Shown: positions 3,924-49,696 of the stretch, piece by piece
How positions within the stretch are numbered: the stretch's first letter is position 1
Layout of the letters: the number at the start of each line of letters is the position of its first letter
Made by a program: the position numbers and the translations under genes
Notes under the pieces: generated by a model
Told to the model about the DNA's origin: nothing
Databases searched by the model: none
Seen by the model: the letters and a program-made list of their open reading frames with translations, nothing else
Source of the DNA: a virus
Length of the DNA stretch: 64,000 bases
UHGV virus genome: UHGV-0144373
Reading direction: 5' to 3' (one strand)

Positions 3924-4654
3924 AAAACTGGAACCTTCGTTGTGGAAACACTCAAAAGCAACCTTACAGTAATGAGTATTGGGAATCTTTGAAATCTCAA
4001 TCTCTGTGTATGCTTGAAGAAGCAAAAGAGCTTGTAAAAGCAATTGAAGAGAAAGACCCCATTGAGACACTGGATGCTCAGGCAGATTTGCAATATGTTC
4101 TTGACGGTTTGATTTACCTGTCACAACATGACCATAATGGTGCTATGAAAGCTGTTTGCCATAATAATGACCTGAAGTACACAGACGATTATGAAGAAGC
4201 TTTAAAACGTCTTGCAGACATTGAAAAGCATACTGGTCAAGAGTGTATTATCAGAATGTCAGTAGTTGATGGTAAAGAGTGGTATGCGATTGTTCGTGTA
4301 GCCGATGGGAAGGTTATGAAGCAATCGAACCTCCCTAAAGTACAGCTTGGTGAATACATTGTAGAACTTGAAAGCCAAGAACTTTTTGTGGTAGTATCTG
4401 AGACATGCGTTATCTGCAAAGGTATTGTAGGTAGCTTAAAGGATTTGGGTGTAGATGGTTTTGTAGAAGTTAATCCAATTACCTCTAAAGCAGATAAAGA
4501 CTTCTGTAAAGAGAATGGACTATGGATTGCAGATATTGTCTACTATGATGGTGAGCAGTTCCATGTAACCTCATACCCGAAACTGAATTATGATGCTAAT
4601 AACCTGAAGTGCTGGTTAAAAGGGGTTGGTTATAATGGATTCACAGAACATTAA
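3899..4654 (+). CDS. hypothetical protein with N-terminal MazG-like NTP pyrophosphohydrolase motif
   Basis: AAGGAG SD; LEEAKELVKAIEE...DAQADLQYVLDG resembles the EExxE...D metal-binding pattern of MazG-like domains. Weak. Confidence 0.3.
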   Translation: MFNSRESVKNWNLRCGNTQKQPYSNEYWESLKSQSLCMLEEAKELVKAIEEKDPIETLDAQADLQYVLDGLIYLSQHDHNGAMKAVCHNNDLKYTDDYEEALKRLADIEKHTGQECIIRMSVVDGKEWYAIVRVADGKVMKQSNLPKVQLGEYIVELESQELFVVVSETCVICKGIVGSLKDLGVDGFVEVNPITSKADKDFCKENGLWIADIVYYDGEQFHVTSYPKLNYDANNLKCWLKGVGYNGFTEH

Positions 4655-4958
4655 TAAAGAAGATGTGGCTCAGAAGAGCCACTTCTCAAACTACAATATC
4701 TCTATGACGGTGTTTATGAATGACCCGTTACTTGAGAAGTATGGTGAGACTCCAGATACACTTCTGGATAATGAACAAGTTTTAAAAGCAGTCCTGTACA
4801 AATACGGGATTGACATTGAGAAAGAGTATTCTTTTGAAATCTGCCAACACAGGAATACTTTCGGTAAAGTTGTGATGGCTCCACTCTTTATGGGTGTAGA
4901 AAGGACTGACTATGGTTGGTTGTATCTAAAAAGAAACTTGGAGAAATACCGTGTCTAA
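4635..4958 (+). CDS. hypothetical protein
   Basis: ATG4635 after AAGGGG; no motif. Confidence 0.4.
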   Translation: MDSQNINKEDVAQKSHFSNYNISMTVFMNDPLLEKYGETPDTLLDNEQVLKAVLYKYGIDIEKEYSFEICQHRNTFGKVVMAPLFMGVERTDYGWLYLKRNLEKYRV

Positions 4959-42449: not shown

Positions 42450-42821
42450 ATGAAAAACAGAACAAACAAAGGCCAGTTTAAAAAAGGCCAGTCTGGAAAC
42501 CCATCTGGAAGACCAAAAGGCTCTCGTAACAAAAGCTCACTCGTAAAAGCTCAACTGACCATTGATAATTCTGCTGAGTTTGCTGCAAAGTTGTTTGAAG
42601 CGATTGTTACAAGGGACGCTGCTAAGCTTGCAGAGTTCGGTTTGACGACTGACGATGTAAACCTGAAGTCGATGATGGAAGCTGGTAAAACTATCATGAC
42701 CCACTCAGCAGGTGAGATGAAAGCGATTGCAGCAGACACTAAGAAGACCCCTGATAATGGTGGTCAGTCTCAGACAGATAACAAGCCAACGTTCTCTGCT
42801 GTAGCGACTCTCAAAAAATAA
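42450..42821 (+). CDS. hypothetical protein with N-terminal GNPSGRPKG motif
   Basis: 123 aa; basic N-terminus KKGQSGNPSGRPKGSRNK. Confidence 0.4.
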   Translation: MKNRTNKGQFKKGQSGNPSGRPKGSRNKSSLVKAQLTIDNSAEFAAKLFEAIVTRDAAKLAEFGLTTDDVNLKSMMEAGKTIMTHSAGEMKAIAADTKKTPDNGGQSQTDNKPTFSAVATLKK

Positions 42822-42833
42822 TTTTAAAAGGTG

Positions 42834-42869
42834 TTGACAGACTCTACAAAGTTGCTCTAAAGTCTGTCA
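42834..42869 (+). promoter_or_regulatory. promoter-like TTGACA overlapped by a perfect 9-bp inverted repeat (operator-like)
   Basis: TGACAGACT (42835-42843) and AGTCTGTCA (42861-42869) separated by 17 bp; TTGACA at 42834-42839. Confidence 0.4.
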
Positions 42870-42902: not shown

Positions 42903-44318
42903 ATGAGCGAGTTATTTAAACATGCGCACCTTCATGCAGGTCGAACTGAAAATGGTGCTGTAAACCATACTTCATCAATGTCTGCTCTTGTAGACTTTTA
43001 CAAAGCTGCTGGTTCAAGCCGTAGCAACGTAGAAATCTTACCAGACCTGTTCTACAAAGCTTTGCGTGAGGATGTTGATGTTGCAGTTCGTATTTTGCTT
43101 CATATGCGAGATGTACGAGAAGGTATGGGTGAGCGTAAAGCCTTCAGAACTGTTTTGCTTCAAGCGATTGAAGACAAAGTTTTAGAGCCTACACAGTTTC
43201 TTCGCATTATGGATAAGATTGCAGAACTTGGTCGTTTTGATGACTTCAAAATCTTCGTAGGTACTCGTTTCGAGACAGATGCCTTCAAACATTTAGAAGC
43301 AGCATTACTAGACCCTGCAACAGCAGGTTTGGCAGCTAAGTGGTTACCACGAGTCAAACCACGTCATAAGCAGTTTGTAAAACGTTTCTGCAAGTTTGCC
43401 AACTTGAGTGAGAAAGAGTACCGCACACTGTTATCTGCACTGTCTGATACGGTTGAGCAAAAAATCTCTGCTAATGAGTTTGGTAAGATTGACTACAGTA
43501 AGATTCCTTCACTCGCTGCTGCACGTTACCAAAAGCTCTTTAACCGCAAAGATGGAGAACGTTACAAAGCTTACATCGAATCACTCTCAAAGGGTGAGTC
43601 TAAGATTAACGCTGGTGCTGTTTATCCATACGATGTGATTAAGTCTCTCAAGCATGGTAATGCAGATGTTGCCAATGAGCAGTGGAAAGCACTACCAAAC
43701 TGGATGGCAGAAGGTGAGAACATCTTGTGTATGACCGATGTTTCAGGCTCAATGTCTTGGGTGAATCTTGGTTCAATCACTGCCCTTGATATTGGTGTAT
43801 CACTTGCCTTGTATGTAGCAGAACGCAATACTGGTTGCTTTAAGGATGAGTTAATGGTTTATTCAACAAACCCTTACTTCATTGAACTGAGTGGTGATTT
43901 ACGAAACCGTCATCGTCAGGTGATGCGACACGTTGAATATGGCTCAACTAACTTACAAGCAGCTTTTGACCGCATTCTTGAGATAGGTAAGAGAAACAAC
44001 TTGACTCAGAAAGATATGCCAAGCAAGCTTATCATCTTCTCCGATATGGAGTTCAATCAGGTTGATGGAGCTAACGGTCGTACAAACTTTGAAGCAATTC
44101 GAGATAAGTACGAAAAAGCTGGATATGAGATGCCACAACTGGTATTCTGGTACTTAGCAAACCGTAATGGTACTTGCGAAGTGTCTGTTAAGGATAACGG
44201 TGTAGCAATGGTATCTGGTTTCTCTCCAGCCACTTTAAAAGCTCTGCTTGGTGGTGAGAAGTTTGACCCAATCAGCGTAATGCTCAAAGCAGTAATGATT
44301 GACCGTTACATCTGGTAA
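42903..44318 (+). CDS. von Willebrand factor A (vWA) domain protein
   Basis: 471 aa; MIDAS motif DVSGSMS in the C-terminal half; large N-terminal domain of unknown type. Confidence 0.55.
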   Translation: MSELFKHAHLHAGRTENGAVNHTSSMSALVDFYKAAGSSRSNVEILPDLFYKALREDVDVAVRILLHMRDVREGMGERKAFRTVLLQAIEDKVLEPTQFLRIMDKIAELGRFDDFKIFVGTRFETDAFKHLEAALLDPATAGLAAKWLPRVKPRHKQFVKRFCKFANLSEKEYRTLLSALSDTVEQKISANEFGKIDYSKIPSLAAARYQKLFNRKDGERYKAYIESLSKGESKINAGAVYPYDVIKSLKHGNADVANEQWKALPNWMAEGENILCMTDVSGSMSWVNLGSITALDIGVSLALYVAERNTGCFKDELMVYSTNPYFIELSGDLRNRHRQVMRHVEYGSTNLQAAFDRILEIGKRNNLTQKDMPSKLIIFSDMEFNQVDGANGRTNFEAIRDKYEKAGYEMPQLVFWYLANRNGTCEVSVKDNGVAMVSGFSPATLKALLGGEKFDPISVMLKAVMIDRYIW

Positions 44319-44337
44319 AAAGTTTTAAAAAAGGGTA

Positions 44338-44366
44338 TTGACAATGTGTTTGATACCCTTTAATAT
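44338..44366 (+). promoter_or_regulatory. sigma70-like promoter upstream of tRNA array
   Basis: TTGACA, 17-nt spacer, TAATAT; embedded in inverted repeat GGGTAT...ATACCC. Confidence 0.45.
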
Positions 44367-44484
44367 GTTCTACATAGAAACGAAATGAGAGCTTTTCTAA
44401 GATACTGAAAAATATTTTAAAAAAGTTCTTGACAACCACTAAAAAATAATGTTAAAGTGGTTACATAGAGTTTGAAAAGTTTAT

Positions 44485-44561
44485 CTCTGTTTAGCTCAGC
44501 TTGGTAGAGCGTTCCGTTTGGGGCGGTAAGGCCGGAGGTTCAAGTCCTCCAACAGAGACCA
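44485..44561 (+). tRNA. tRNA-Pro (anticodon TGG)
   Basis: Cloverleaf folded by eye: acceptor CTCTGTT/AACAGAG, anticodon loop TTTGGGG, T-loop TTCAAGT, encoded CCA. Confidence 0.65.
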
Positions 44562-44568
44562 AATTAAT

Positions 44569-44646
44569 GTTCCAGTAGACAAAATGGTATAGTCACCACT
44601 CTTTCAAAGTGGATATCTGAGGGTTCAAATCCCTTCTGGAACGCCA
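44569..44646 (+). tRNA. tRNA-Glu (anticodon TTC)
   Basis: Acceptor GTTCCAG/CTGGAAC, anticodon loop CTTTCAA, T-loop TTCAAAT, CCA. Confidence 0.6.
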
Positions 44647-44653
44647 GTTTTGA

Positions 44654-44725
44654 CAGAAGACCAATTACAGCAAACTTAATCTACTCATCTGACACGAAAT
44701 CGGACAAAGAAGATATTTGGTCTGG
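44654..44725 (+). repeat. inter-tRNA structured element, CAGAAGACC...GGTCTGG family (copy 1)
   Basis: Starts CAGAAGACCAATTACAGCAA, ends TTGGTCTGG; termini complementary. Confidence 0.45.
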
Positions 44726-44737
44726 TCATTGAGAATT

Positions 44738-44813
44738 GCGGGTATAGAGAAAGGGCGTCTCACATGTCTCATTAGCATGGTATCGGCAGGTTCGACTCCT
44801 GCACCCGCCTCCA
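44738..44813 (+). tRNA. tRNA with anticodon CAT (Met, fMet or Ile2)
   Basis: Anticodon stem CATGT/GCATG, loop CTCATTA, T-arm GCAGG-TTCGACT-CCTGC, CCA; acceptor has one mismatch. Confidence 0.45.
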
Positions 44814-44819
44814 ATTTTG

Positions 44820-44880
44820 CAGAAGACCGTATTCAGCAACAAAATACTTTTTGCGGATAAAAGAAAAAACACGGTCTGGC
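44820..44880 (+). repeat. inter-tRNA structured element (copy 2)
   Basis: CAGAAGACCGTATTCAGCAA...ACGGTCTGGC. Confidence 0.45.
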
Positions 44881-44890
44881 AATGTATTAA

Positions 44891-44967
44891 GGTTAGGAAG
44901 CACATAAGGTATGTGCGGTCGCCTGTTAAGCGAATGGCACAGGGTTCGAATCCCTGACTAACCGCCA
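44891..44967 (+). tRNA. tRNA-Asn (anticodon GTT)
   Basis: D-stem GCAC/GTGC, anticodon loop CTGTTAA, T-arm CAGGG-TTCGAAT-CCCTG, CCA. Confidence 0.6.
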
Positions 44968-45036
44968 AATTTAGGAGAGAAGCGATTGCTCACCGATTTG
45001 TAAGGTGCAAGTCCTTAGCCTGAATAGAAATTAAAT

Positions 45037-45124
45037 GTGTCGTTATCCCGTAGATGGTAGCGGTGGGGACTGTAAATCCCTTGTCATTGAGACTCGGTAG
45101 GTTCGACTCCTACACGGCACACCA
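45037..45124 (+). tRNA. tRNA-Tyr (anticodon GTA), long variable arm
   Basis: Acceptor GTGTCGT/ACGGCAC, anticodon loop CTGTAAA, 15-nt variable arm, T-arm GTAGG-TTCGACT-CCTAC, CCA. Confidence 0.6.
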
Positions 45125-45129
45125 ATAAA

Positions 45130-45207
45130 GGTTATGTAGTTTAATTTGGTTAAAATACTCCCCTGTCACGGGAGATGATGAGGGTTCAAATCCCTTCGTA
45201 ACCGCCA
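45130..45207 (+). tRNA. tRNA-Asp (anticodon GTC)
   Basis: Acceptor GGTTATG/CGTAACC, anticodon stem CTCCC/GGGAG, loop CTGTCAC, CCA. Confidence 0.65.
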
Positions 45208-45268
45208 ATTTTGAGAGGGCTATTTAGCCCCTCCCTTAAAGGGTTCTTACGAGTATCCTTTAAAGGAG

Positions 45269-45341
45269 CAGAAGACCAAATACAGCAAGAACGTATGAAA
45301 TTTCAAGCCAATTTAATTTTGAAAATTTAAACTTGGTCTGG
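45269..45341 (+). repeat. inter-tRNA structured element (copy 3)
   Basis: CAGAAGACCAAATACAGCAA...ACTTGGTCTGG. Confidence 0.45.
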
Positions 45342-45354
45342 CTCAACAAATTTA

Positions 45355-45486
45355 CAGAAGACCGTTTACAGCAAAACTTAAACAATCTATTTCTCCGGTA
45401 AAGAAAAGGCGAAGGTTCGATTCCTTCACTCGGCAGATGTCGAGTTGGTGTAATGGTAGCACTTAAGATGATAAACAACGGTCTGG
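45355..45486 (+). repeat. inter-tRNA structured element (copy 4) containing tRNA-like hairpins
   Basis: CAGAAGACCGTTTACAGCAA...CGGTCTGG; inside: T-arm-like GAAGG-TTCGATT-CCTTC, acceptor-like hairpin ACTCGGC-AGAT-GTCGAGT, D-arm-like GTG-TAATGGTAG-CAC. Confidence 0.4.
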
Positions 45487-45488
45487 TA

Positions 45489-45630
45489 ATTATCTTTGTA
45501 GATAAGTTATTAAGCTTACCTGTGAGTATGCGACCACAAAGGGTGAAAGGGTAAATTCTAGATTTAAACCCAAAAAGGCACATCGCTACAGACCTTAAGC
45601 AAGTCTGGGTAGCTTATCTACAAAGATAAT
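45489..45630 (+). repeat. perfect 18-bp inverted repeat flanking a 106-nt structured segment
   Basis: ATTATCTTTGTAGATAAG (45489-45506) and its exact reverse complement CTTATCTACAAAGATAAT (45613-45630). Confidence 0.7.
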
Positions 45631-45635
45631 TTAAT

Positions 45636-45711
45636 GGAAGTGTAGCAGAATGGTGATGCGGCAGACTTTTAATCTGACAGGCGATGGGTTCGAATCCCTC
45701 CACTTCTACCA
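45636..45711 (+). tRNA. tRNA-Lys (anticodon TTT)
   Basis: Acceptor GGAAGTG/CACTTCT, anticodon loop CTTTTAA, T-loop TTCGAAT, CCA; T-stem weak. Confidence 0.5.
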
Positions 45712-45715
45712 AAAT

Positions 45716-45792
45716 GGTTCAGTCGCAGATAAGGTAATGCAAGGGTCTCATAAGCCCTATGAATGTGGGTTCGATTCCCATCTGAACCTCCA
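45716..45792 (+). tRNA. tRNA-Met (anticodon CAT)
   Basis: Acceptor GGTTCAG/CTGAACC, anticodon stem AGGGT/GCCCT, loop CTCATAA, T-arm GTGGG-TTCGATT-CCCAT, CCA. Confidence 0.6.
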
Positions 45793-45794
45793 AT

Positions 45795-45869
45795 TGTGGG
45801 TTAGCATAAATGGTAATGCAAACGGCTGATAACCGTTAGAAGAGGGTTCGATACCCTCACCTACAACCA
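45795..45869 (+). tRNA. tRNA-Ile (anticodon GAT)
   Basis: D-stem GCAT/ATGC, anticodon stem AACGG/CCGTT, loop CTGATAA, T-arm GAGGG-TTCGATA-CCCTC, CCA. Confidence 0.65.
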
Positions 45870-45884
45870 ATTTCAATAAAGTTG

Positions 45885-45913
45885 TTGACATTGAGATGTG
45901 ACTACTTTATAGT
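45885..45913 (+). promoter_or_regulatory. sigma70-like promoter inside tRNA array
   Basis: TTGACA, 17-nt spacer, TATAGT. Confidence 0.5.
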
Positions 45914-46117
45914 AACCTTAGTTTTCGTTGCGTAGCGTCTATTTTGCAAATTTAAAATAAATGCAAACGACAATGTTTTTCTGGCAGTAGCTTGATAGGC
46001 TAAACACCAGTGAGGTCTTCCAATCCCTCATCAAAGAATTTGGCGTACTCGCCCACGGTATGATTAATAAGGTGGGCATCTTTAAGGGCTTTCTAAGAGA
46101 GTCTTTAAAGATAATTA

Positions 46118-46199
46118 CGGGGCGTATCTCAGCTGTCTTCTAAACAGCCGTTAACCGAGTAAGTGGAGTATGCGGGTTCGAGTCCTGCCGCCTCGACCA
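46118..46199 (+). tRNA. atypical tRNA-like gene, anticodon TCT (Arg); D-arm apparently missing
   Basis: Acceptor CGGGGCG/CGCCTCG, perfect anticodon arm GCTGT-CTTCTAA-ACAGC, T-arm GCGGG-TTCGAGT-CCTGC, CCA; only 5 nt between position 9 and the anticodon stem, and a 23-nt variable region. Confidence 0.35.
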
Positions 46200-46342
46200 A
46201 TTTAGTTAGCAGATTACTTAGACGACCTAAGCGGGTCTTCCTGTAGGGAGGTGGTCTGTATCTCATGTTTTCCAGAACATGTAAATAATCTGAGAAGGGG
46301 CTTTACAGTGTTGAGATAATACGGTAAGCTTCGAATTATAGT

Positions 46343-46425
46343 ATGGGATGATGTTAAGACTCTAAGGCATGAGCAACGGCTTCCAACACCGTTTCAAAGG
46401 GGTTCAACTCCTCCGTCCCATGCCA
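46343..46425 (+). tRNA. tRNA, anticodon undetermined (possibly Trp, CCA)
   Basis: Acceptor ATGGGAT/GTCCCAT, T-loop TTCAACT, CCA; best anticodon hairpin AACGG/CCGTT around TTCCAAC; about 7 extra nt in the D region. Confidence 0.3.
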
Positions 46426-46438
46426 AAGTCTTATTAGG

Positions 46439-46528
46439 GGTAGGTAGCGGCTAATGGTAGCCAAACTGTCTTGAAAACAGTTGCCACTGTAGAGATACGG
46501 TGAGGGTTCGACTCCTTTACTTACCGCC
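46439..46528 (+). tRNA. tRNA-Ser (anticodon TGA), long variable arm
   Basis: Acceptor GGTAGGT/ACTTACC, anticodon stem ACTGT/ACAGT, loop CTTGAAA, about 20-nt variable arm, discriminator G. Confidence 0.6.
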
Positions 46529-46784
46529 TAATAAGATTTTAAAGCCAAGCTTCATTCGGATGTTGCTTTGGTATCCCTCGTGTATTGTCTAACACACTGA
46601 TAAATCACCTAGTAGGTGTCACGGAGAAGAGATAATATCAAGCTCTCCAAAGGTTCTAGTCACCGGATTAAACAAGACTATGCAAAGACCTTTTTAGGTC
46701 TTTTTAGAGGGCTTCTAAGGTTATTACAGCTTGTTGTGGAACCTTGTTGCTTAGGTTCTTAGAAGTTCTCTAAAAAGATTTAAT

Positions 46785-46861
46785 GCACCTATAGCCCAAC
46801 TGGTAGAGGCAGCAGACTTAGAATCTGCTCAGTGTGAGTTCGAATCTCTCTAGGTGTACCA
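46785..46861 (+). tRNA. tRNA with anticodon TAG (Leu by anticodon) but short variable arm
   Basis: Acceptor GCACCTA/TAGGTGT, anticodon stem GCAGA/TCTGC, loop CTTAGAA, 5-nt variable loop, discriminator A, CCA. Confidence 0.5.
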
Positions 46862-46868
46862 AATTAAT

Positions 46869-46944
46869 GCAGGTGTAGCAAAATGGTTATGCGGCTGACT
46901 CTTAATCAGTAAGACGATGGGTTCAATTCCCTCCACCTGTACCA
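46869..46944 (+). tRNA. tRNA-Lys (anticodon CTT)
   Basis: Paralogous to the TTT tRNA; anticodon loop CTCTTAA; T-loop TTCAATT; CCA. Confidence 0.55.
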
Positions 46945-46950
46945 AACATT

Positions 46951-47026
46951 GGGGATGTAGTTTACATGGTTAAAACATAAGTTTTGCAAACTTAAGTACA
47001 GGGTTCAATTCCCTGCTTCTCCACCA
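46951..47026 (+). tRNA. tRNA-Ala (anticodon TGC)
   Basis: G3:U70 wobble in acceptor (Ala identity element), anticodon stem TAAGT/ACTTA, loop TTTGCAA, T-arm CAGGG-TTCAATT-CCCTG, CCA. Confidence 0.65.
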
Positions 47027-47032
47027 ATTAGT

Positions 47033-47107
47033 GCATCCATAGTTTAAATGGGAAAATTACAGTCTTCCAAACTGAGGTTGAGGGTTCGATTCCCTCTGGA
47101 TGCTCCA
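47033..47107 (+). tRNA. tRNA-Gly (anticodon TCC)
   Basis: Acceptor GCATCCA/TGGATGC, anticodon loop CTTCCAA, T-arm GAGGG-TTCGATT-CCCTC, CCA. Confidence 0.6.
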
Positions 47108-47114
47108 AATTAAT

Positions 47115-47190
47115 GCTCCTATCGTATAATTGGCTATTACGGTTGCCTTGTAAGCAACTTATCAGGGTTCGAATCCTTGTGGGAGCACCA
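47115..47190 (+). tRNA. tRNA-Thr (anticodon TGT)
   Basis: Acceptor GCTCCTA/TGGGAGC, anticodon stem GTTGC/GCAAC, loop CTTGTAA, CCA. Confidence 0.65.
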
Positions 47191-47285
47191 ATTCAGAGGT
47201 CAAGTGAAAGACCGCTGGTGTCAACTGAAGACCGTAACAAATTCCACGGAGTTGAGTTAGCGGCACAACTTCAGACCTCTTTCAT

Positions 47286-47360
47286 ACTCGCTTAGTTTAT
47301 ATGGTAAAACACCACCCTTACAAGATGAAGAAAAAGGTTCAAGTCCTTTAGTGAGTACCA
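47286..47360 (+). tRNA. tRNA-Val (anticodon TAC), weak anticodon stem
   Basis: Acceptor ACTCGCT/AGTGAGT, D-stem GTTT/AAAC, loop CTTACAA with 3 of 5 stem pairs, T-arm AAAGG-TTCAAGT-CCTTT, CCA. Confidence 0.45.
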
Positions 47361-47361
47361 T

Positions 47362-47439
47362 GTTCCAGTATCCCAATTGGCAGAGGATGCAAGCTCAAAC
47401 CTTGTATTAGTGATGGTTCGAATCCGTCTTGGAACACCA
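47362..47439 (+). tRNA. tRNA with anticodon CAA (Leu by anticodon) but short variable arm
   Basis: Acceptor GTTCCAG/TTGGAAC, anticodon stem GCAAG/CTTGT, loop CTCAAAC, discriminator A, CCA. Confidence 0.5.
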
Positions 47440-47444
47440 ATTTT

Positions 47445-47520
47445 GCAGGATTAGTTCAAATGGATAGAGCAACAGTCTACGAAGCTGTTAATAGGGGTTC
47501 GAATCCCTTATCCTGCACCA
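47445..47520 (+). tRNA. tRNA-Arg (anticodon ACG)
   Basis: Acceptor GCAGGAT/ATCCTGC, anticodon loop CTACGAA, T-arm AGGGG-TTCGAAT-CCCTT, CCA. Confidence 0.65.
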
Positions 47521-47538
47521 GACAAGTAAGAGGAATTT

Positions 47539-47781
47539 ATGCAAACATTAATCGTCATTGAACATGAAAATTCCAATAGTATTGAGTTTGTAAGGGTTCC
47601 CACTATAGATACCCACATTTTCTTGAAAGTCGGATGGGGATGTGACCCAATAAAAGTAGAAAATTTTATTGGTCATTACTTTGGTGGAAGACAACTTAAA
47701 AGCGTCAATTTTGAGACAATGTTACCAGAAAACTCAGAAACAAATAATAATGTTTATCTCCTTACGAGGATTAGACAATGA
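47539..47781 (+). CDS. hypothetical protein embedded in tRNA array
   Basis: 80 aa; AAGAGGA SD. Confidence 0.4.
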   Translation: MQTLIVIEHENSNSIEFVRVPTIDTHIFLKVGWGCDPIKVENFIGHYFGGRQLKSVNFETMLPENSETNNNVYLLTRIRQ

Positions 47782-48335
47782 GATATCTGAAGTATGCTTC
47801 ATGGATTTTCCTAGCTTTGTTAGAACCATTGGCAGCAACCTTAGCAGTTATCTTAGCACCCTTTGTAGTCCCATTCTACAGTGAGAAGAAAGGTCATCTA
47901 CCTTTTGGATTCAGATGGATGGAGACATATGACAACCCAATTGATGGTGATAAAGGTCATGTCGAACGATGGGCTAAGATTAGAAAGATTGGTAAGCTTG
48001 GTGTCTATATGCAGAGAGTTGGTTGGCTCTGGAGAAACAAAGCTTATAACTTCTCTTACCATGTGTTAGGAAGAGATGTAAAAGATGTTACTAAGTGGAA
48101 AGGTAATATCAATGTAAGTTCTAACCCTGAAGATAATCAGACAGGTTATCTCCTAATGTGGAACAGTAATGCTTGGGGATTATTCGCTTTTATCCCGTCA
48201 ATTAAAGTCTTTGGTAATCAATTCTACTGGAGAATTTATGTTGGGTGGAAACTTAAAAGTGTTGTCCCAAAAGAAAGAGCATTCTCAAGGGAAAGAGTTA
48301 TGTTGGCATTCTTTATTCATCCACTGAGAAAGTAA
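47778..48335 (+). CDS. hypothetical membrane-associated protein embedded in tRNA array
   Basis: 185 aa; hydrophobic N-terminus; ATGA overlap with upstream ORF. Confidence 0.4.
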   Translation: MRYLKYASWIFLALLEPLAATLAVILAPFVVPFYSEKKGHLPFGFRWMETYDNPIDGDKGHVERWAKIRKIGKLGVYMQRVGWLWRNKAYNFSYHVLGRDVKDVTKWKGNINVSSNPEDNQTGYLLMWNSNAWGLFAFIPSIKVFGNQFYWRIYVGWKLKSVVPKERAFSRERVMLAFFIHPLRK

Positions 48336-48343
48336 AGATTTAA

Positions 48344-48419
48344 AGGGGATTAGTTTACAAGGTTAAAACCTCGGTCTTTGAAATCGAAGAAGTTGGTTCA
48401 ATTCCAACATCCCCCGCCA
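48344..48419 (+). tRNA. tRNA-Gln (anticodon TTG)
   Basis: Acceptor AGGGGAT/ATCCCCC (1:72 mismatch), anticodon loop CTTTGAA, T-arm GTTGG-TTCAATT-CCAAC, CCA. Confidence 0.55.
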
Positions 48420-48421
48420 AT

Positions 48422-48500
48422 GCTCCATTACTCCAATTGGCAGAGAGGCCAGACTTAAAATCTGTGTTATGTATCGGTTCGAATCCGATATGGAGTACCA
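48422..48500 (+). tRNA. tRNA with anticodon TAA (Leu by anticodon) but short variable arm
   Basis: Acceptor GCTCCAT/ATGGAGT, anticodon loop CTTAAAA, T-arm ATCGG-TTCGAAT-CCGAT, discriminator A, CCA. Confidence 0.5.
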
Positions 48501-48505
48501 AATTT

Positions 48506-48581
48506 AGCGGTATAGCATAACTGGCAATGCAGCAGCCTCTGAAGCTGTCCTATTAAGGTTCAAATCCTTATGCCGCTGCCA
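48506..48581 (+). tRNA. tRNA-Gln (anticodon CTG)
   Basis: Acceptor AGCGGTA/TGCCGCT, anticodon stem GCAGC/GCTGT, loop CTCTGAA, T-arm TAAGG-TTCAAAT-CCTTA, CCA. Confidence 0.6.
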
Positions 48582-48612
48582 CTTCTAAGGATTCTTGCGA
48601 GAGTCCTTAAAT

Positions 48613-48688
48613 GTGGCCTTATCATAAACGGTAATGACCCATGCTGTGAACATGGTCTATACGGGTTCAAATCCCGTAGGTCACCCCA
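48613..48688 (+). tRNA. tRNA-His (anticodon GTG)
   Basis: Acceptor GTGGCCT/AGGTCAC, anticodon stem CCATG/CATGG, loop CTGTGAA, discriminator C, CCA. Confidence 0.65.
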
Positions 48689-48693
48689 ATTTA

Positions 48694-48770
48694 TAGTCCA
48701 AGTAGCTTATATGGTTAAAGCGCGTGTCTGAAAAACATGAGAAGAGGGTTCAAATCCCACTGGACTACCA
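48694..48770 (+). tRNA. tRNA-Phe (anticodon GAA)
   Basis: D-stem GCTT/AAGC, anticodon stem CGTGT/ACATG, loop CTGAAAA, T-loop TTCAAAT; exact 5' boundary ambiguous. Confidence 0.5.
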
Positions 48771-48786
48771 ATTTCAAAGGTGCTTA

Positions 48787-49521
48787 ATGAAAGAGATGAC
48801 AGAACAAGGTAAGGAGATTTTTAATCTCTTAAAAACCGGTAAAGGGTTCTCTAACCCGCTTATTACTGGTGCAGCAGTTCTCGGTGGAACCGTAGCTGCT
48901 TCTACATCACTTGTAAGCTCTATTAGTTCTGTAACAGACCCTACAATGAAGGAGAAACTTGTTGCTGCTGGGCTTACAACAGTCCTTCTAAACAGCTTTA
49001 CAACAAGCCTTACAAGCACTACAGCAACTACTAAAACTCTGACAGACTACGGTCAAAAGTCTATTGATGAGTTTTCATCACGTATGCAGGTAGCAAAGGG
49101 GTATTCCAATGTTATGGGTGCAGCAGGAGAACAAGTTGGTTGTACACCATTCAGTGGTATCATGGGTGTTGCTACAGAGTATGGTCAAAAAGCTATTGAC
49201 ATGATAAACAGTACACTAGATAGTGTTAATGGTGTGTTAAGTGACTTACAAGATGCTATTGATAAGGGTCTTGATACTGTTTCTGATTTAGCTAACCAAG
49301 CTGTCAGTAAGATTAATGAAGGTATCTCAAAGATTACAGCTTATGCAGATGAAGTTGTGCAGATGATTGAAGAAGAAGCTGCCCTTATTGCAGAGTACCT
49401 TAAAACGAATATCAATGGGTTCTTAGCAGGTATCTTACCAGACTGGTTTGATGATGCTTGTAAAACTGGTGTAATTGATGCTATTGCAACACCAGAAATG
49501 AAGAACGCATTACAGAAATAA
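48787..49521 (+). CDS. hypothetical Ser/Thr-rich protein
   Basis: ATG48787 after AAAGG; the track start at 48724 (GTG) would overlap tRNA-Phe. Confidence 0.4.
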   Translation: MKEMTEQGKEIFNLLKTGKGFSNPLITGAAVLGGTVAASTSLVSSISSVTDPTMKEKLVAAGLTTVLLNSFTTSLTSTTATTKTLTDYGQKSIDEFSSRMQVAKGYSNVMGAAGEQVGCTPFSGIMGVATEYGQKAIDMINSTLDSVNGVLSDLQDAIDKGLDTVSDLANQAVSKINEGISKITAYADEVVQMIEEEAALIAEYLKTNINGFLAGILPDWFDDACKTGVIDAIATPEMKNALQK

Positions 49522-49523
49522 AT

Positions 49524-49616
49524 GGAAGATTAACCCTAAAAGGTAAGGGAGCAGTTTGCTAAACTGCCAGTAGCTGAGAAATCGGTGTACCAGTTCAAGT
49601 CTGGTATCTTCCTCCA
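49524..49616 (+). tRNA. tRNA-Ser (anticodon GCT), long variable arm
   Basis: Acceptor GGAAGAT/ATCTTCC, anticodon stem GCAGT/ACTGC, loop TTGCTAA, 21-nt variable arm, T-arm ACCAG-TTCAAGT-CTGGT, CCA. Confidence 0.6.
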
Positions 49617-49620
49617 ATTT

Positions 49621-49696
49621 GAATCCGTGACAGAAATGGCTATGTGCCTGTCTGCAAAACAGGTTTATAAGGGTTTGAGTCCCTTCGGATTCTCCA
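49621..49696 (+). tRNA. tRNA-Cys (anticodon GCA)
   Basis: Acceptor GAATCCG/CGGATTC, anticodon stem CCTGT/ACAGG, loop CTGCAAA, non-canonical T-loop TTTGAGT, CCA. Confidence 0.5.

What the first reader, a model, noticed from the sequence alone, without database searches (positions are those of the whole stretch)
42903..44318. Large vWA/MIDAS protein immediately upstream of the tRNA array
A 471-aa protein with a clear MIDAS motif (DVSGSMS) in its C-terminal half and a large unassigned N-terminal domain. I suspect a resemblance to Ro60-like (TROVE plus vWA) RNA-binding proteins that pair with tRNA-like Y RNAs, but this is speculative and the TROVE part is not demonstrated. Its position right before a tRNA array rich in tRNA-like elements makes an RNA-binding role worth testing.
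Basis: inference. Interest (0 to 1): 0.5.

Follow-up and report, generated by a model that had tools for sequence, protein, structure and literature searches.

The report
Phage Ro60-like protein with partner RNAs
This FelixO1-type phage gene encodes a diverged relative of the Ro60 RNA-binding ring protein, and comparison with about 240 other phage loci shows that this protein family travels with its own small structured RNAs, four of which sit in "tRNA slots" of the adjacent tRNA array.

Summary
The ORF is real: 42903..44318 (+), 471 aa, gene 42 of FelixO1-type phages. It belongs to the large DUF2828+DUF7788 family (PHROG 850; about 8,700 clusters at 50% identity).

This family is coupled, on the same strand and usually within 500 nt, to a small RNA with a covarying basal helix, a CAGCAA motif and an A-rich 3′ side. 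Some copies carry a permuted tRNA-like (YrlA-type) core. This held in 49/81 viral loci and replicated in 42/80 independent bacterial-assembly loci.

The window has four copies, E1–E4 at 44651–45489, interleaved with tRNAs. E4 has the tRNA-like core. A model built without Felix sequences ranks E1–E3 as its top three hits.

RNA binding and function are untested, and the SUSP1 ortholog is dispensable in the lab.

The parts
42834..42863 (+). sigma-70-like promoter candidate for the gene (TTGACA-18-TAAAGT)
   Evidence: Consensus scan, 10 of 12 matches and sequence. This is a consensus match only; the total number of such sites in the region is not above the shuffle expectation.
42903..44318 (+). 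ORF of 471 aa: Ro60-like protein of the DUF2828/DUF7788 family (PHROG 850; Felix O1 gene 42)
42903..43706 (+). N-terminal all-helical HEAT-like alpha-solenoid domain (aa 1-268; Pfam DUF2828). Invariant basic residues R40, R69, R72, R78, R111, K146, R208.
43707..44315 (+). C-terminal vWA domain (Pfam DUF7788) with a complete MIDAS: D279-x-S281-x-S283 (nt 43737-43751), T349, D381
   Evidence: Pfam DUF7788 4e-43, VWA_2 2.8e-4. MIDAS residues invariant. hhalign to the Ro60 vWA and preceding helices at 86-89% probability, E 2.5e-6.
44330..44361 (+). 12-bp hairpin just after the stop codon (terminator t42 of Felix O1), overlapping a promoter-like site at 44338-44366. A second promoter-like site lies at 44429-44458, before tRNA-Pro.
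   Evidence: sequence, and Felix O1 Table 2.
44651..44728 (+). E1: short-form CAGCAA stem-loop RNA, between tRNA-Glu and tRNA-Met
   Evidence: Pattern match. Model R2, built only from non-Felix phages, scores it 32.3 bits, E 1.5e-5. The MFE fold reproduces the outer 4-bp helix, the AGA x G loop and the 7-bp helix. Conserved in Alf5, Sf17 and SUSP2.
44817..44882 (+). E2: short-form CAGCAA stem-loop RNA, between tRNA-Met and tRNA-Asn
   Evidence: R2 34.8 bits, E 3.4e-6, the best hit in the window.
45266..45344 (+). E3: short-form CAGCAA stem-loop RNA
   Evidence: R2 28.4 bits, E 1.5e-4.
45352..45489 (+). E4: long-form member. Same basal module, enclosing a permuted tRNA-like core (T-arm, then hairpin, then D-arm; core 45397-45471), i.e. 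YrlA-type architecture.
   Evidence: Model R1 scores it 32.9 bits, E about 9e-9; it is the top hit in the window and the only strong hit that is not a tRNA-tRNA junction. It aligns with 22 long forms from other phages, with covariation. The inter-arm hairpin changes from CTCG/CGAG to CACG/CGTG in Sf17 and SUSP2. Fold.
44485..49696 (+). Co-oriented array of 25 tRNA genes in which E1-E4 occupy tRNA-like slots
   Evidence: ARAGORN and Rfam.

Best explanation
The ORF encodes a diverged Ro60-type RNA-binding protein: a HEAT-like helical arc joined to a vWA/MIDAS domain in the same arrangement as the Ro60 ring.

Its likely ligands are the small RNAs E1-E4, encoded 330-1170 nt downstream on the same strand. 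These RNAs share a basal helix (5' AGACC.. / ..GGUCU-G 3'), a UUA-CAGCAA internal-loop motif and an A-rich 3' side. E4 adds a permuted tRNA-like domain, as bacterial YrlA Y RNAs have.

Because E1-E4 lie between tRNA genes, they would be cut out of the array transcript by the tRNA-processing enzymes (inferred).

By analogy with Rsr-YrlA and with phiRo60 of Thermus phage phiLo, the protein would bind the conserved basal module on its outer surface to form an RNP. That RNP would engage structured RNAs or a host exoribonuclease such as PNPase, with the tRNA-like domain of E4 acting as a handle for tRNA-recognising factors. The role would be conditional, for example RNA quality control or repair, or counter-defence.

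Shown here: the fold resemblance, family membership, and the genomic coupling of protein family and RNA family, with covariation. Inferred: actual binding, processing, and the biological role.
For: Protein:
- The full-length AF2 model (pLDDT 86) hits only Ro60/Rsr/TROVE structures in the Foldseek top 10 (E about 1e-8, TM up to 0.65).
- hhalign of the family against Ro60 profiles gives 86-89% probability, E 2.5e-6, extending into the helices before the vWA.
- MIDAS is invariant.
- Related proteins are annotated 'Ro-like RNA binding protein' in mycobacteriophages.

RNA:
- Rfam YrlA hits lie next to DUF2828-type genes in Klebsiella phage phi1_175008 (two copies), mycobacteriophage Samty and Sinorhizobium phage phiM19.
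- The positive control on canonical phage Ro60 loci works.
- Model R1 finds 26 orphan permuted-tRNA-like modules in 19 of 81 loci, at a median of 271 nt from the gene (permutation P < 5e-5).
- In the 23-sequence alignment, 86.5% of cells are paired against 61.6% in shuffles (0/500), with 95 double-change cells against 29 expected, and all 7 basal-helix pairs are compensatory.
- The motif scan gives 115 gene-strand hits against 20 on the opposite strand, 70 of them within 500 nt. 49 of 81 loci have a module within 1.5 kb, against 2 of 81 on the opposite strand.
- Independent replication on 80 bacterial-assembly loci: 48 R2 hits at E <= 0.01, all on the gene strand, 27 within 250 nt and 0 in the 2-3 kb bin; 42 of 80 loci are positive.

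Window:
- Four copies of CAGAAGACCnnnTACAGCAA against 0.25 expected by chance.
- R2, built without Felix sequences, ranks E2, E1 and E3 as its top three hits.
- R1 ranks E4 first.
- The elements are conserved across three Ounavirinae genera.

Precedent: phiRo60 binds adjacent Y-like RNAs and host PNPase (PMC12135203). YrlA lies within 4 kb, on the same strand, of Ro60 in 254 bacteria and 22 phages (PMC4201824).
Against: - The Pfam TROVE and vWA_Ro60 models do not match the protein at E <= 1, and canonical Ro60 proteins do not match DUF2828/DUF7788.
- The N-terminal region has no profile-profile signal to TROVE (E 0.22, against 0.27 for a reversed control).
- The N-terminal domain modelled alone retrieves generic alpha-solenoids first.
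- The helical part is about 80 residues shorter than in Ro60, so a closed ring is not established.
- The Rfam YrlA model finds nothing in the 64-kb window.
- Thermodynamic z-scores of E1-E4 are modest, -1.3 to -2.6.
- RNA modules were detected in only about 50-60% of loci.
- The alignments used for covariation were assembled by searching for complementarity. This is partly controlled by the shuffled-flank test (25/27 against a maximum of 14) and by the independent replication.
- E-values from the home-built models are rough.
- Knockdown of the SUSP1 ortholog gave no fitness defect.
- There is no experimental evidence here for expression of E1-E4, for binding, or for any link to PNPase.
Confidence: 0.6

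Rival explanations
1. The CAGCAA stem-loops are cis-acting operators or stabilisers on the mRNA of the DUF2828-type gene (autoregulation or transcript-end protection), not stable trans-acting partner RNAs.
For: In most loci the module lies within 33-350 nt of the gene. In the bacterial-assembly set it is mostly upstream (44 of 48), where a 5' UTR would be. Thermodynamic stability is modest.
Against: In the Felix window, E1-E4 are separated from the gene by a terminator hairpin, two promoter-like sites and two tRNAs, and they lie between tRNA genes. Modules occur both upstream and downstream, and in tandem sets of up to five. A subset carries a YrlA-type tRNA-like domain, which characterises stable Y RNAs. 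This reading would still imply that the protein binds these RNAs.
Confidence: 0.15
2. The protein is a vWA/MIDAS adaptor with a generic HEAT-like domain that works through protein-protein contacts (for example as a cofactor of a chaperone or assembly factor). It has no RNA role, and the neighbouring RNA elements are processing or spacer signals of early transcripts and tRNA precursors.
For: The N-terminal domain alone matches many non-RNA solenoids. There is no sequence link to TROVE. MIDAS motifs usually bind acidic residues of partner proteins (established knowledge of vWA domains). The ortholog is non-essential in the lab.
Confidence: 0.1
3. The protein acts directly on the phage's own tRNAs or pre-tRNAs (folding surveillance, or protection from host anticodon nucleases) without a dedicated Y-like RNA. 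E1-E4 are decayed tRNA genes.
For: tRNAs lie within 3-6 kb in about 40% of loci, essentially always on the same strand: 114 against 1 in the bacterial set and all in the viral set. Canonical phage Ro60 genes also sit in or next to tRNA arrays. Ro60 is known to bind misfolded structured RNAs (literature).
Against: About 60% of loci have no tRNA nearby yet often keep the CAGCAA module. The basal module is conserved and covaries, which decayed tRNA genes would not do. The short forms have no tRNA-like features.
Confidence: 0.12

Closest known systems
Bacterial Rsr (Ro60) with YrlA/YrlB Y RNAs (Salmonella rsr-yrlBA-rtcBA; Deinococcus Rsr-Yrn1-PNPase 'RYPER')
   Same: Two-domain protein with a helical repeat arc plus a vWA with MIDAS. 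One or more small RNAs are encoded within a few hundred nt on the same strand. The RNA has a long-range basal helix that encloses, in some copies, a permuted tRNA-like domain (T-arm before D-arm), alongside shorter copies without it, as with YrlB.
   Different: There is no match to the Pfam TROVE or vWA_Ro60 models, and the helical part is about 80 residues shorter. The RNA carries its own signature (AGR helix base, UUA-CAGCAA, A-rich 3' side, trailing G) that is absent from three canonical phage Ro60 loci. The window's RNAs score nothing with the Rfam YrlA model. RtcB linkage is only sporadic.
phiRo60 of Thermus phage phiLo with Yrl1/Yrl2 (PDB 9kop, 9l5y; PMC12135203)
   Different: phiRo60 is deposited as a TROVE-domain protein and its RNAs were picked by a CGAA motif. 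Sequence identity in the structural alignments is only 15-16%. Nothing has been tested for the Felix protein.
Ro60 + YrlA of cluster C mycobacteriophages and other actinophages (ET08, Sixama, Mildred21)
   Same: Phage context with tRNA arrays nearby. In Sixama the Ro gene directly precedes a tRNA array, and a YrlA lies inside that array.
   Different: Those proteins are canonical TROVE + vWA_Ro60 and almost confined to actinophages (359 records). The Felix-type family is found in phages of many host phyla (710 records).
Small stable RNAs encoded inside phage tRNA clusters (T4 species 1 and 2 RNAs; own knowledge, not checked here)
   Same: Non-tRNA structured RNAs that occupy slots in a phage tRNA cluster and are presumably released by tRNA-processing enzymes.
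   Different: No protein partner or sequence relationship is known to me. This is a recalled analogy only.

Membership tests
DUF2828/DUF7788 family (Pfam PF11443 + PF25043; PHROG 850 'RNA-binding protein') | Matches to both Pfam models above their gathering scores, and an end-to-end match to the PHROG profile | tested here: met
   DUF7788 147.6 bits (cut-off 27.1), DUF2828 103.3 bits (cut-off 29). PHROG 850 E 1.5e-182 over residues 1-471.
Ro60/Rsr (TROVE) family | Sequence match to the TROVE domain model (PF05731) | tested here: not met
   No TROVE hit at E <= 1. N-terminal hhalign against TROVE profiles gives E 0.22, the same as a reversed control. Canonical Ro60 proteins match TROVE at 1e-26 to 1e-49.
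Ro60/Rsr (TROVE) family | Ro60-type vWA domain with MIDAS (PF25045 vWA_Ro60) | tested here: inconclusive
   No direct PF25045 hit. However, hhalign aligns residues 217-451 to the Ro60 vWA and preceding helices at 86-89% probability, and the MIDAS residues are invariant.
Ro60/Rsr (TROVE) family | Overall architecture: HEAT-repeat arc closed by the vWA domain into a ring | tested here: met
Ro60/Rsr (TROVE) family | The helical domain on its own is recognisably TROVE rather than a generic solenoid | tested here: inconclusive
Ro60/Rsr (TROVE) family | Y RNA encoded nearby on the same strand | tested here: met
   At family level. In the window: E4 by R1 and E1-E3 by R2.
Ro60/Rsr (TROVE) family | Binding of Y RNA on the outer surface and of misfolded RNA ends in the central cavity | not testable with these tools
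   This needs biochemistry or a structure of the complex.
YrlA RNA (Rfam RF02553), for element E4 | Score at or above the Rfam gathering threshold (69 bits) | tested here: not met
   No YrlA hit in the window at E <= 5 (9.5 kb) or E <= 0.05 (64 kb). Accepted phage YrlAs also score only 37-47 bits.
YrlA RNA (Rfam RF02553), for element E4 | Permuted tRNA-like domain (T-arm, hairpin, D-arm) enclosed by a long-range helix | tested here: met
   R1 32.9 bits with full model coverage. The fold shows a basal helix enclosing a cloverleaf-like junction. It aligns with 22 long forms, with covariation.
Generic vWA (PF13519 VWA_2) | Score above the gathering threshold | tested here: not met

The most novel reading that the evidence does not exclude
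DUF2828/DUF7788 proteins and the 'CAGCAA' stem-loop RNAs form a second, very widespread and so far undescribed class of phage and prophage Ro60-type RNPs. It runs parallel to Rsr-YrlA but has its own RNA recognition module. In FelixO1-type phages its RNAs have been inserted into the tRNA array, so that the tRNA-processing machinery releases them. The RNP would serve to manipulate host RNA decay or to protect or repair phage tRNAs under attack by host defences.
Probability: 0.45. Interest if true: 0.75.

Novelty: new variant of a known kind. Interest (0 to 1): 0.65.

Why it matters
Ro60-Y RNA particles are conserved from bacteria to humans, yet their function is still only partly understood. 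Bacterial and phage examples have been looked for only where a TROVE domain is annotated (Chen et al. 2014).

If the Felix-type family is a true functional analog, the known range of Ro60-type RNPs in viruses grows from a few hundred actinophage genomes to thousands of protein clusters in phages of Enterobacteria, Vibrio, Campylobacter, Listeria, Staphylococcus, Clostridia, cyanobacteria and others.

It would also supply a compact RNA recognition module of about 55 nt that is easy to test, in genetically tractable coliphages (FelixO1, SUSP1) where knockdown tools already exist.

Several 'hypothetical protein' CDS in deposited records overlap these RNA elements and are probably annotation artefacts.

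Tried and rejected
- Sequence searches of the PDB with the protein and with a 40-sequence profile found no Ro60. Pairwise BLASTP against human Ro60 was not significant.
- NCBIfam gave nothing.
- hhalign of the N-terminal region alone was negative.
- The N-terminal domain modelled alone did not single out TROVE.
- The Rfam YrlA model gave no hit in the window.
- A 'longest helix' heuristic for the basal stem was misled by AT-rich sequence and was replaced by motif-anchored detection.
- A loose motif scan was too noisy (59 opposite-strand hits) and was tightened.
- Conserved protein partners were sought and not found. RtcB, the macro domain and DUF5681 each occur next to the gene in only one or two of 81 loci by tblastn. 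There is no MoxR-type ATPase in the Felix neighbourhood.
- Thermodynamic stability is not a useful discriminator.
- I could not retrieve Burroughs & Aravind 2016 or Sim et al. 2020, so I cannot exclude that they mention this family. Full-text searches for DUF2828 found no paper linking it to Ro60 or Y RNAs. Searches on YrlA and phage found none beyond the TROVE-based Chen et al. 2014.
- The 98% pairing in alignment A7 is partly by construction and was not used as evidence.

Full report
**Observation.** The ORF is exactly as described: ATG at 42903, stop ending at 44318, + strand, 471 aa, with DVSGSMS at residues 279-285. ARAGORN finds 25 tRNA genes on the same strand from 44485 to 49696, so the first tRNA starts 166 nt after the stop. 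The window is a FelixO1-type myovirus, 97.9% identical over this region to Escherichia phage Alf5. In the Felix O1 genome paper this is gene 42. Its transcript was detected by RT-PCR with a maximum at 25 min, and the hairpin after the stop (window 44330-44361) is that paper's terminator t42 (PMC3185647).

**What the protein is.** Pfam assigns the N-terminal part to DUF2828 and the C-terminal part to DUF7788. Generic vWA models score below threshold, and the TROVE and vWA_Ro60 models do not match. PHROG 850, labelled 'RNA-binding protein', matches end to end.

The family is large. tblastn finds it in 710 phage records from many host genera. An exhaustive profile search finds 8,722 representatives at 50% identity, of which 3,956 have E <= 1e-30. 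In a 40-sequence alignment the complete MIDAS signature (D279, S281, S283, T349, D381) and a set of basic residues in the helical part are invariant.

**Is it Ro60-like?** Sequence-only searches do not reach Ro60. The full-length AlphaFold model is confident (pLDDT 86, pTM 0.86).
- The ten best Foldseek hits in the PDB are all Ro60, Rsr or a phage TROVE protein, aligned over more than 500 columns. The next tier covers only the vWA domain.
- Profile-profile comparison with two Ro60 alignments gives 86-89% probability (E 2.5e-6) over residues 217-451. This includes the helices before the vWA, where Ro60's conserved 'RIHP' aligns with the family's invariant 'VYPYD'.

Three results go the other way.
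- The N-terminal 230 residues show no profile signal to TROVE: E 0.22 against 0.27 for a reversed control.
- A model of residues 1-268 alone (pLDDT 86) retrieves generic HEAT/ARM/MIF4G solenoids first. Phage Ro60 is at rank 17, although it has the longest alignment.
- Canonical Ro60 proteins and this family do not cross-hit each other's Pfam models.

My reading is that the protein has the Ro60 architecture and a Ro60-related vWA. Its helical domain is of the right fold class but too diverged to be called TROVE, so it is not a canonical family member.

**The RNA side.** Rfam finds no Y RNA in the window, although the same search detects YrlA next to canonical phage Ro60 genes.

I then looked at distant homologs of the Felix protein. 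In six annotated phages the gene always lies near same-strand tRNAs. Rfam reports YrlA-type RNAs directly after the gene in Klebsiella phage phi1_175008 (two copies, between the gene and its tRNA array), directly after the gene in mycobacteriophage Samty, and 1.3 kb upstream in Sinorhizobium phage phiM19. The alignments show the permuted order T-arm, hairpin, D-arm, so these are not tRNAs.

A covariance model of this core (R1) run on 81 loci found 26 modules that overlap no ARAGORN tRNA, in 19 loci. In the 16 loci not used to build the model they lie at a median of 271 nt from the gene, which no random placement reached in 20,000 trials.

Their flanks share one architecture: a 7-10 bp basal helix that differs between loci but keeps an AGR/YCU base, a U-rich linker, a (A/C)C(A/C)GCAA motif, the tRNA-like core, an A-rich stretch, the 3' strand and a trailing G.
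- An anchored helix of 7 bp or more is present in 25 of 27 elements, against at most 14 when the 3' flank is shuffled.
- On a 23-sequence MAFFT alignment, 86.5% of cells pair against 61.6% in shuffles.
- There are 95 double-change cells against 29 expected, and slid registers give about 40% pairing.
- All seven basal pairs show compensatory changes.

**A commoner short form.** The same basal module also occurs without the tRNA-like core, as hairpins of about 55 nt. A pattern scan of the 81 loci gave 115 hits on the gene strand against 20 on the opposite strand. Seventy of the 115 lie within 500 nt of the gene, about 35 times the density beyond 4 kb. 49 of 81 loci have a module within 1.5 kb, against 2 of 81 for the opposite strand, and this includes loci without any tRNA. 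Three canonical TROVE loci have none.

**Replication.** I then drew 80 further loci from bacterial genome assemblies, none of which was used in model building. The short-form model R2 gave 48 hits at E <= 0.01, all on the gene strand, in 34 loci. Of these, 27 are within 250 nt of the gene and none is in the 2-3 kb bin. Together with 20 orphan long-form modules, 42 of 80 loci are positive. tRNAs lie within 3-6 kb in about 40% of loci in both sets, almost always on the same strand. No protein-coding neighbour is conserved.

**In the window.** The motif CAGAAGACCnnnTACAGCAA occurs four times, all on the + strand between 44654 and 45374, against 0.25 expected by chance.
- The four elements are E1 (44651-44728), E2 (44817-44882), E3 (45266-45344) and E4 (45352-45489).
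- E1 and E2 each fill the gap between two tRNA genes; E3 and E4 lie in tandem between tRNA-Asp and tRNA-Lys.
- Their outer 4-bp helices covary between copies: TGAC/GTCA, TTGC/GCAA, GAGC/GCTC, TTAC/GTAA.
- R2, built only from non-Felix phages, ranks E2, E1 and E3 as its three best hits in the whole window (34.8, 32.3 and 28.4 bits; the next hit is 15.4).
- R1 ranks the core of E4 first, at 32.9 bits. Its other strong hits are junctions between adjacent tRNAs.
- All four are conserved in place in Alf5, Mooglevirus Sf17 and Suspvirus SUSP2. The basal modules are nearly invariant, the apical parts diverge, and the E4 inter-arm hairpin shows a compensatory change.
- Stability z-scores are unremarkable, so the case is comparative and not thermodynamic.

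**Mechanism.** The best-supported model is a Ro60-type RNP. The protein binds the conserved basal module of E1-E4, and the RNAs are released from the array transcript by tRNA-processing enzymes. The particle then acts on structured RNA or on a host exoribonuclease, as shown for Rsr-YrlA-PNPase and for phiRo60, which binds two adjacent Y-like RNAs and attenuates host PNPase (PMC4201824, PMC12135203). Every step after the genomic coupling is inference.

A genome-wide knockdown screen of the FelixO1-like phage SUSP1 scored the ortholog (agp131) 'Not Fit' (PMC11879866 supplement). This fits an accessory, condition-dependent role but gives no positive functional evidence. The rival explanations are cis-regulatory operators, a protein-only adaptor, and direct tRNA surveillance; each is set out with its test in the rivals section.

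**Novelty.** That this family resembles Ro60 is already reflected in annotations ('Ro-like RNA binding protein', PHROG 'RNA-binding protein'). Ro60 with Y RNAs in phages is also established, but only for TROVE-annotated proteins. I found no Rfam family or paper that describes the CAGCAA RNA family or links DUF2828 proteins to Y-like RNAs. I could not read two relevant reviews. I therefore rate it a new variant of a known kind.

Noticed in passing
window 42450-42821 (+): The upstream gene (123 aa, Pfam DUF5681, PHROG 4114) has its own promoter-like site. Its SUSP1 ortholog agp130 was scored 'Fit', i.e. important for infection, in the CRISPRi-ART screen, unlike the Ro60-like gene. It accompanies the Ro60-like gene only in Felix-like phages and the relative L016.
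   Followed up: partly
window 45260-45583 (-): A 107-aa minus-strand ORF, annotated as a hypothetical protein in Alf5 (ORF044c), overlaps E3 and E4 and is probably spurious. In the same way, a 171-nt 'hypothetical protein' CDS in SUSP1/SUSP2 lies in the tRNA-Glu to tRNA-Asp interval where the window and Sf17 have E1, tRNA-Met, E2, tRNA-Asn and tRNA-Tyr, and a Samty CDS (L009:6562-6756) overlaps its YrlA-like RNA.
   Followed up: partly
window 44968-45036 and 47191-47285 (+): Two more non-tRNA segments fill tRNA-sized slots in the array and fold into closed stem structures (AUUUAGG/CCUGAAU; AGAGGUC/GACCUCU, -30.7 kcal/mol). They lack the CAGCAA motif and were not hit by R1 or R2.
   Followed up: no
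window 45870-46438 (+): A 569-nt non-coding gap begins with the best promoter match in the region (45885-45913, TTGACA-17-TATAGT; P45 of Felix O1). It contains weak tmRNA-like hits (45812-45995 tmRNA_permuted 32.5 bits; 45927-46116), a tRNA-like pseudo-gene (46117-46196, with a T-arm at 46175) and an orphan T-arm at 46401 just before tRNA-Ser. Alf5 has an HNH endonuclease inserted here.
   Followed up: no
window 46529-46784 (+): A 256-nt non-coding segment between tRNA-Ser and tRNA-Leu has a very stable predicted fold (-68 kcal/mol), including a long hairpin. Its function is unknown.
   Followed up: no
window 47778-48335 (+): A 185-aa ORF is embedded in the tRNA array. Its probable SUSP1 counterpart, matched only by its 558-nt length and its position in the tRNA array (agp134), was scored 'Semi-Fit' in the knockdown screen.
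   Followed up: no
L010:3426-3977 (Listeria phage List-36): A ROOL RNA (Rfam RF03087, 91.5 bits, E 4e-17) lies about 1 kb upstream of the Ro60-like gene, between tRNAs. Three tandem CAGCAA modules (4619-4885) sit immediately before the gene, and an RtcB RNA ligase lies 1.3 kb downstream.
   Followed up: partly
L003:4968-5389 and L003:5874-5972 (Gordonia phage Sixama): A canonical Ro60 gene is followed by a tmRNA and a tRNA array, with a YrlA inside the array. This is the same gene-then-array layout as in the Felix window, reached with a different protein family.
   Followed up: partly
L035, L040, L024, L032 and window 45440-45471: A subfamily of long-form RNAs, including Felix E4, uses a distinct D-arm (GTGTAAYGGTAGCAC) in place of the usual TAGCTCAGTGGTAGAGC, which suggests at least two lineages of the tRNA-like core.
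   Followed up: no
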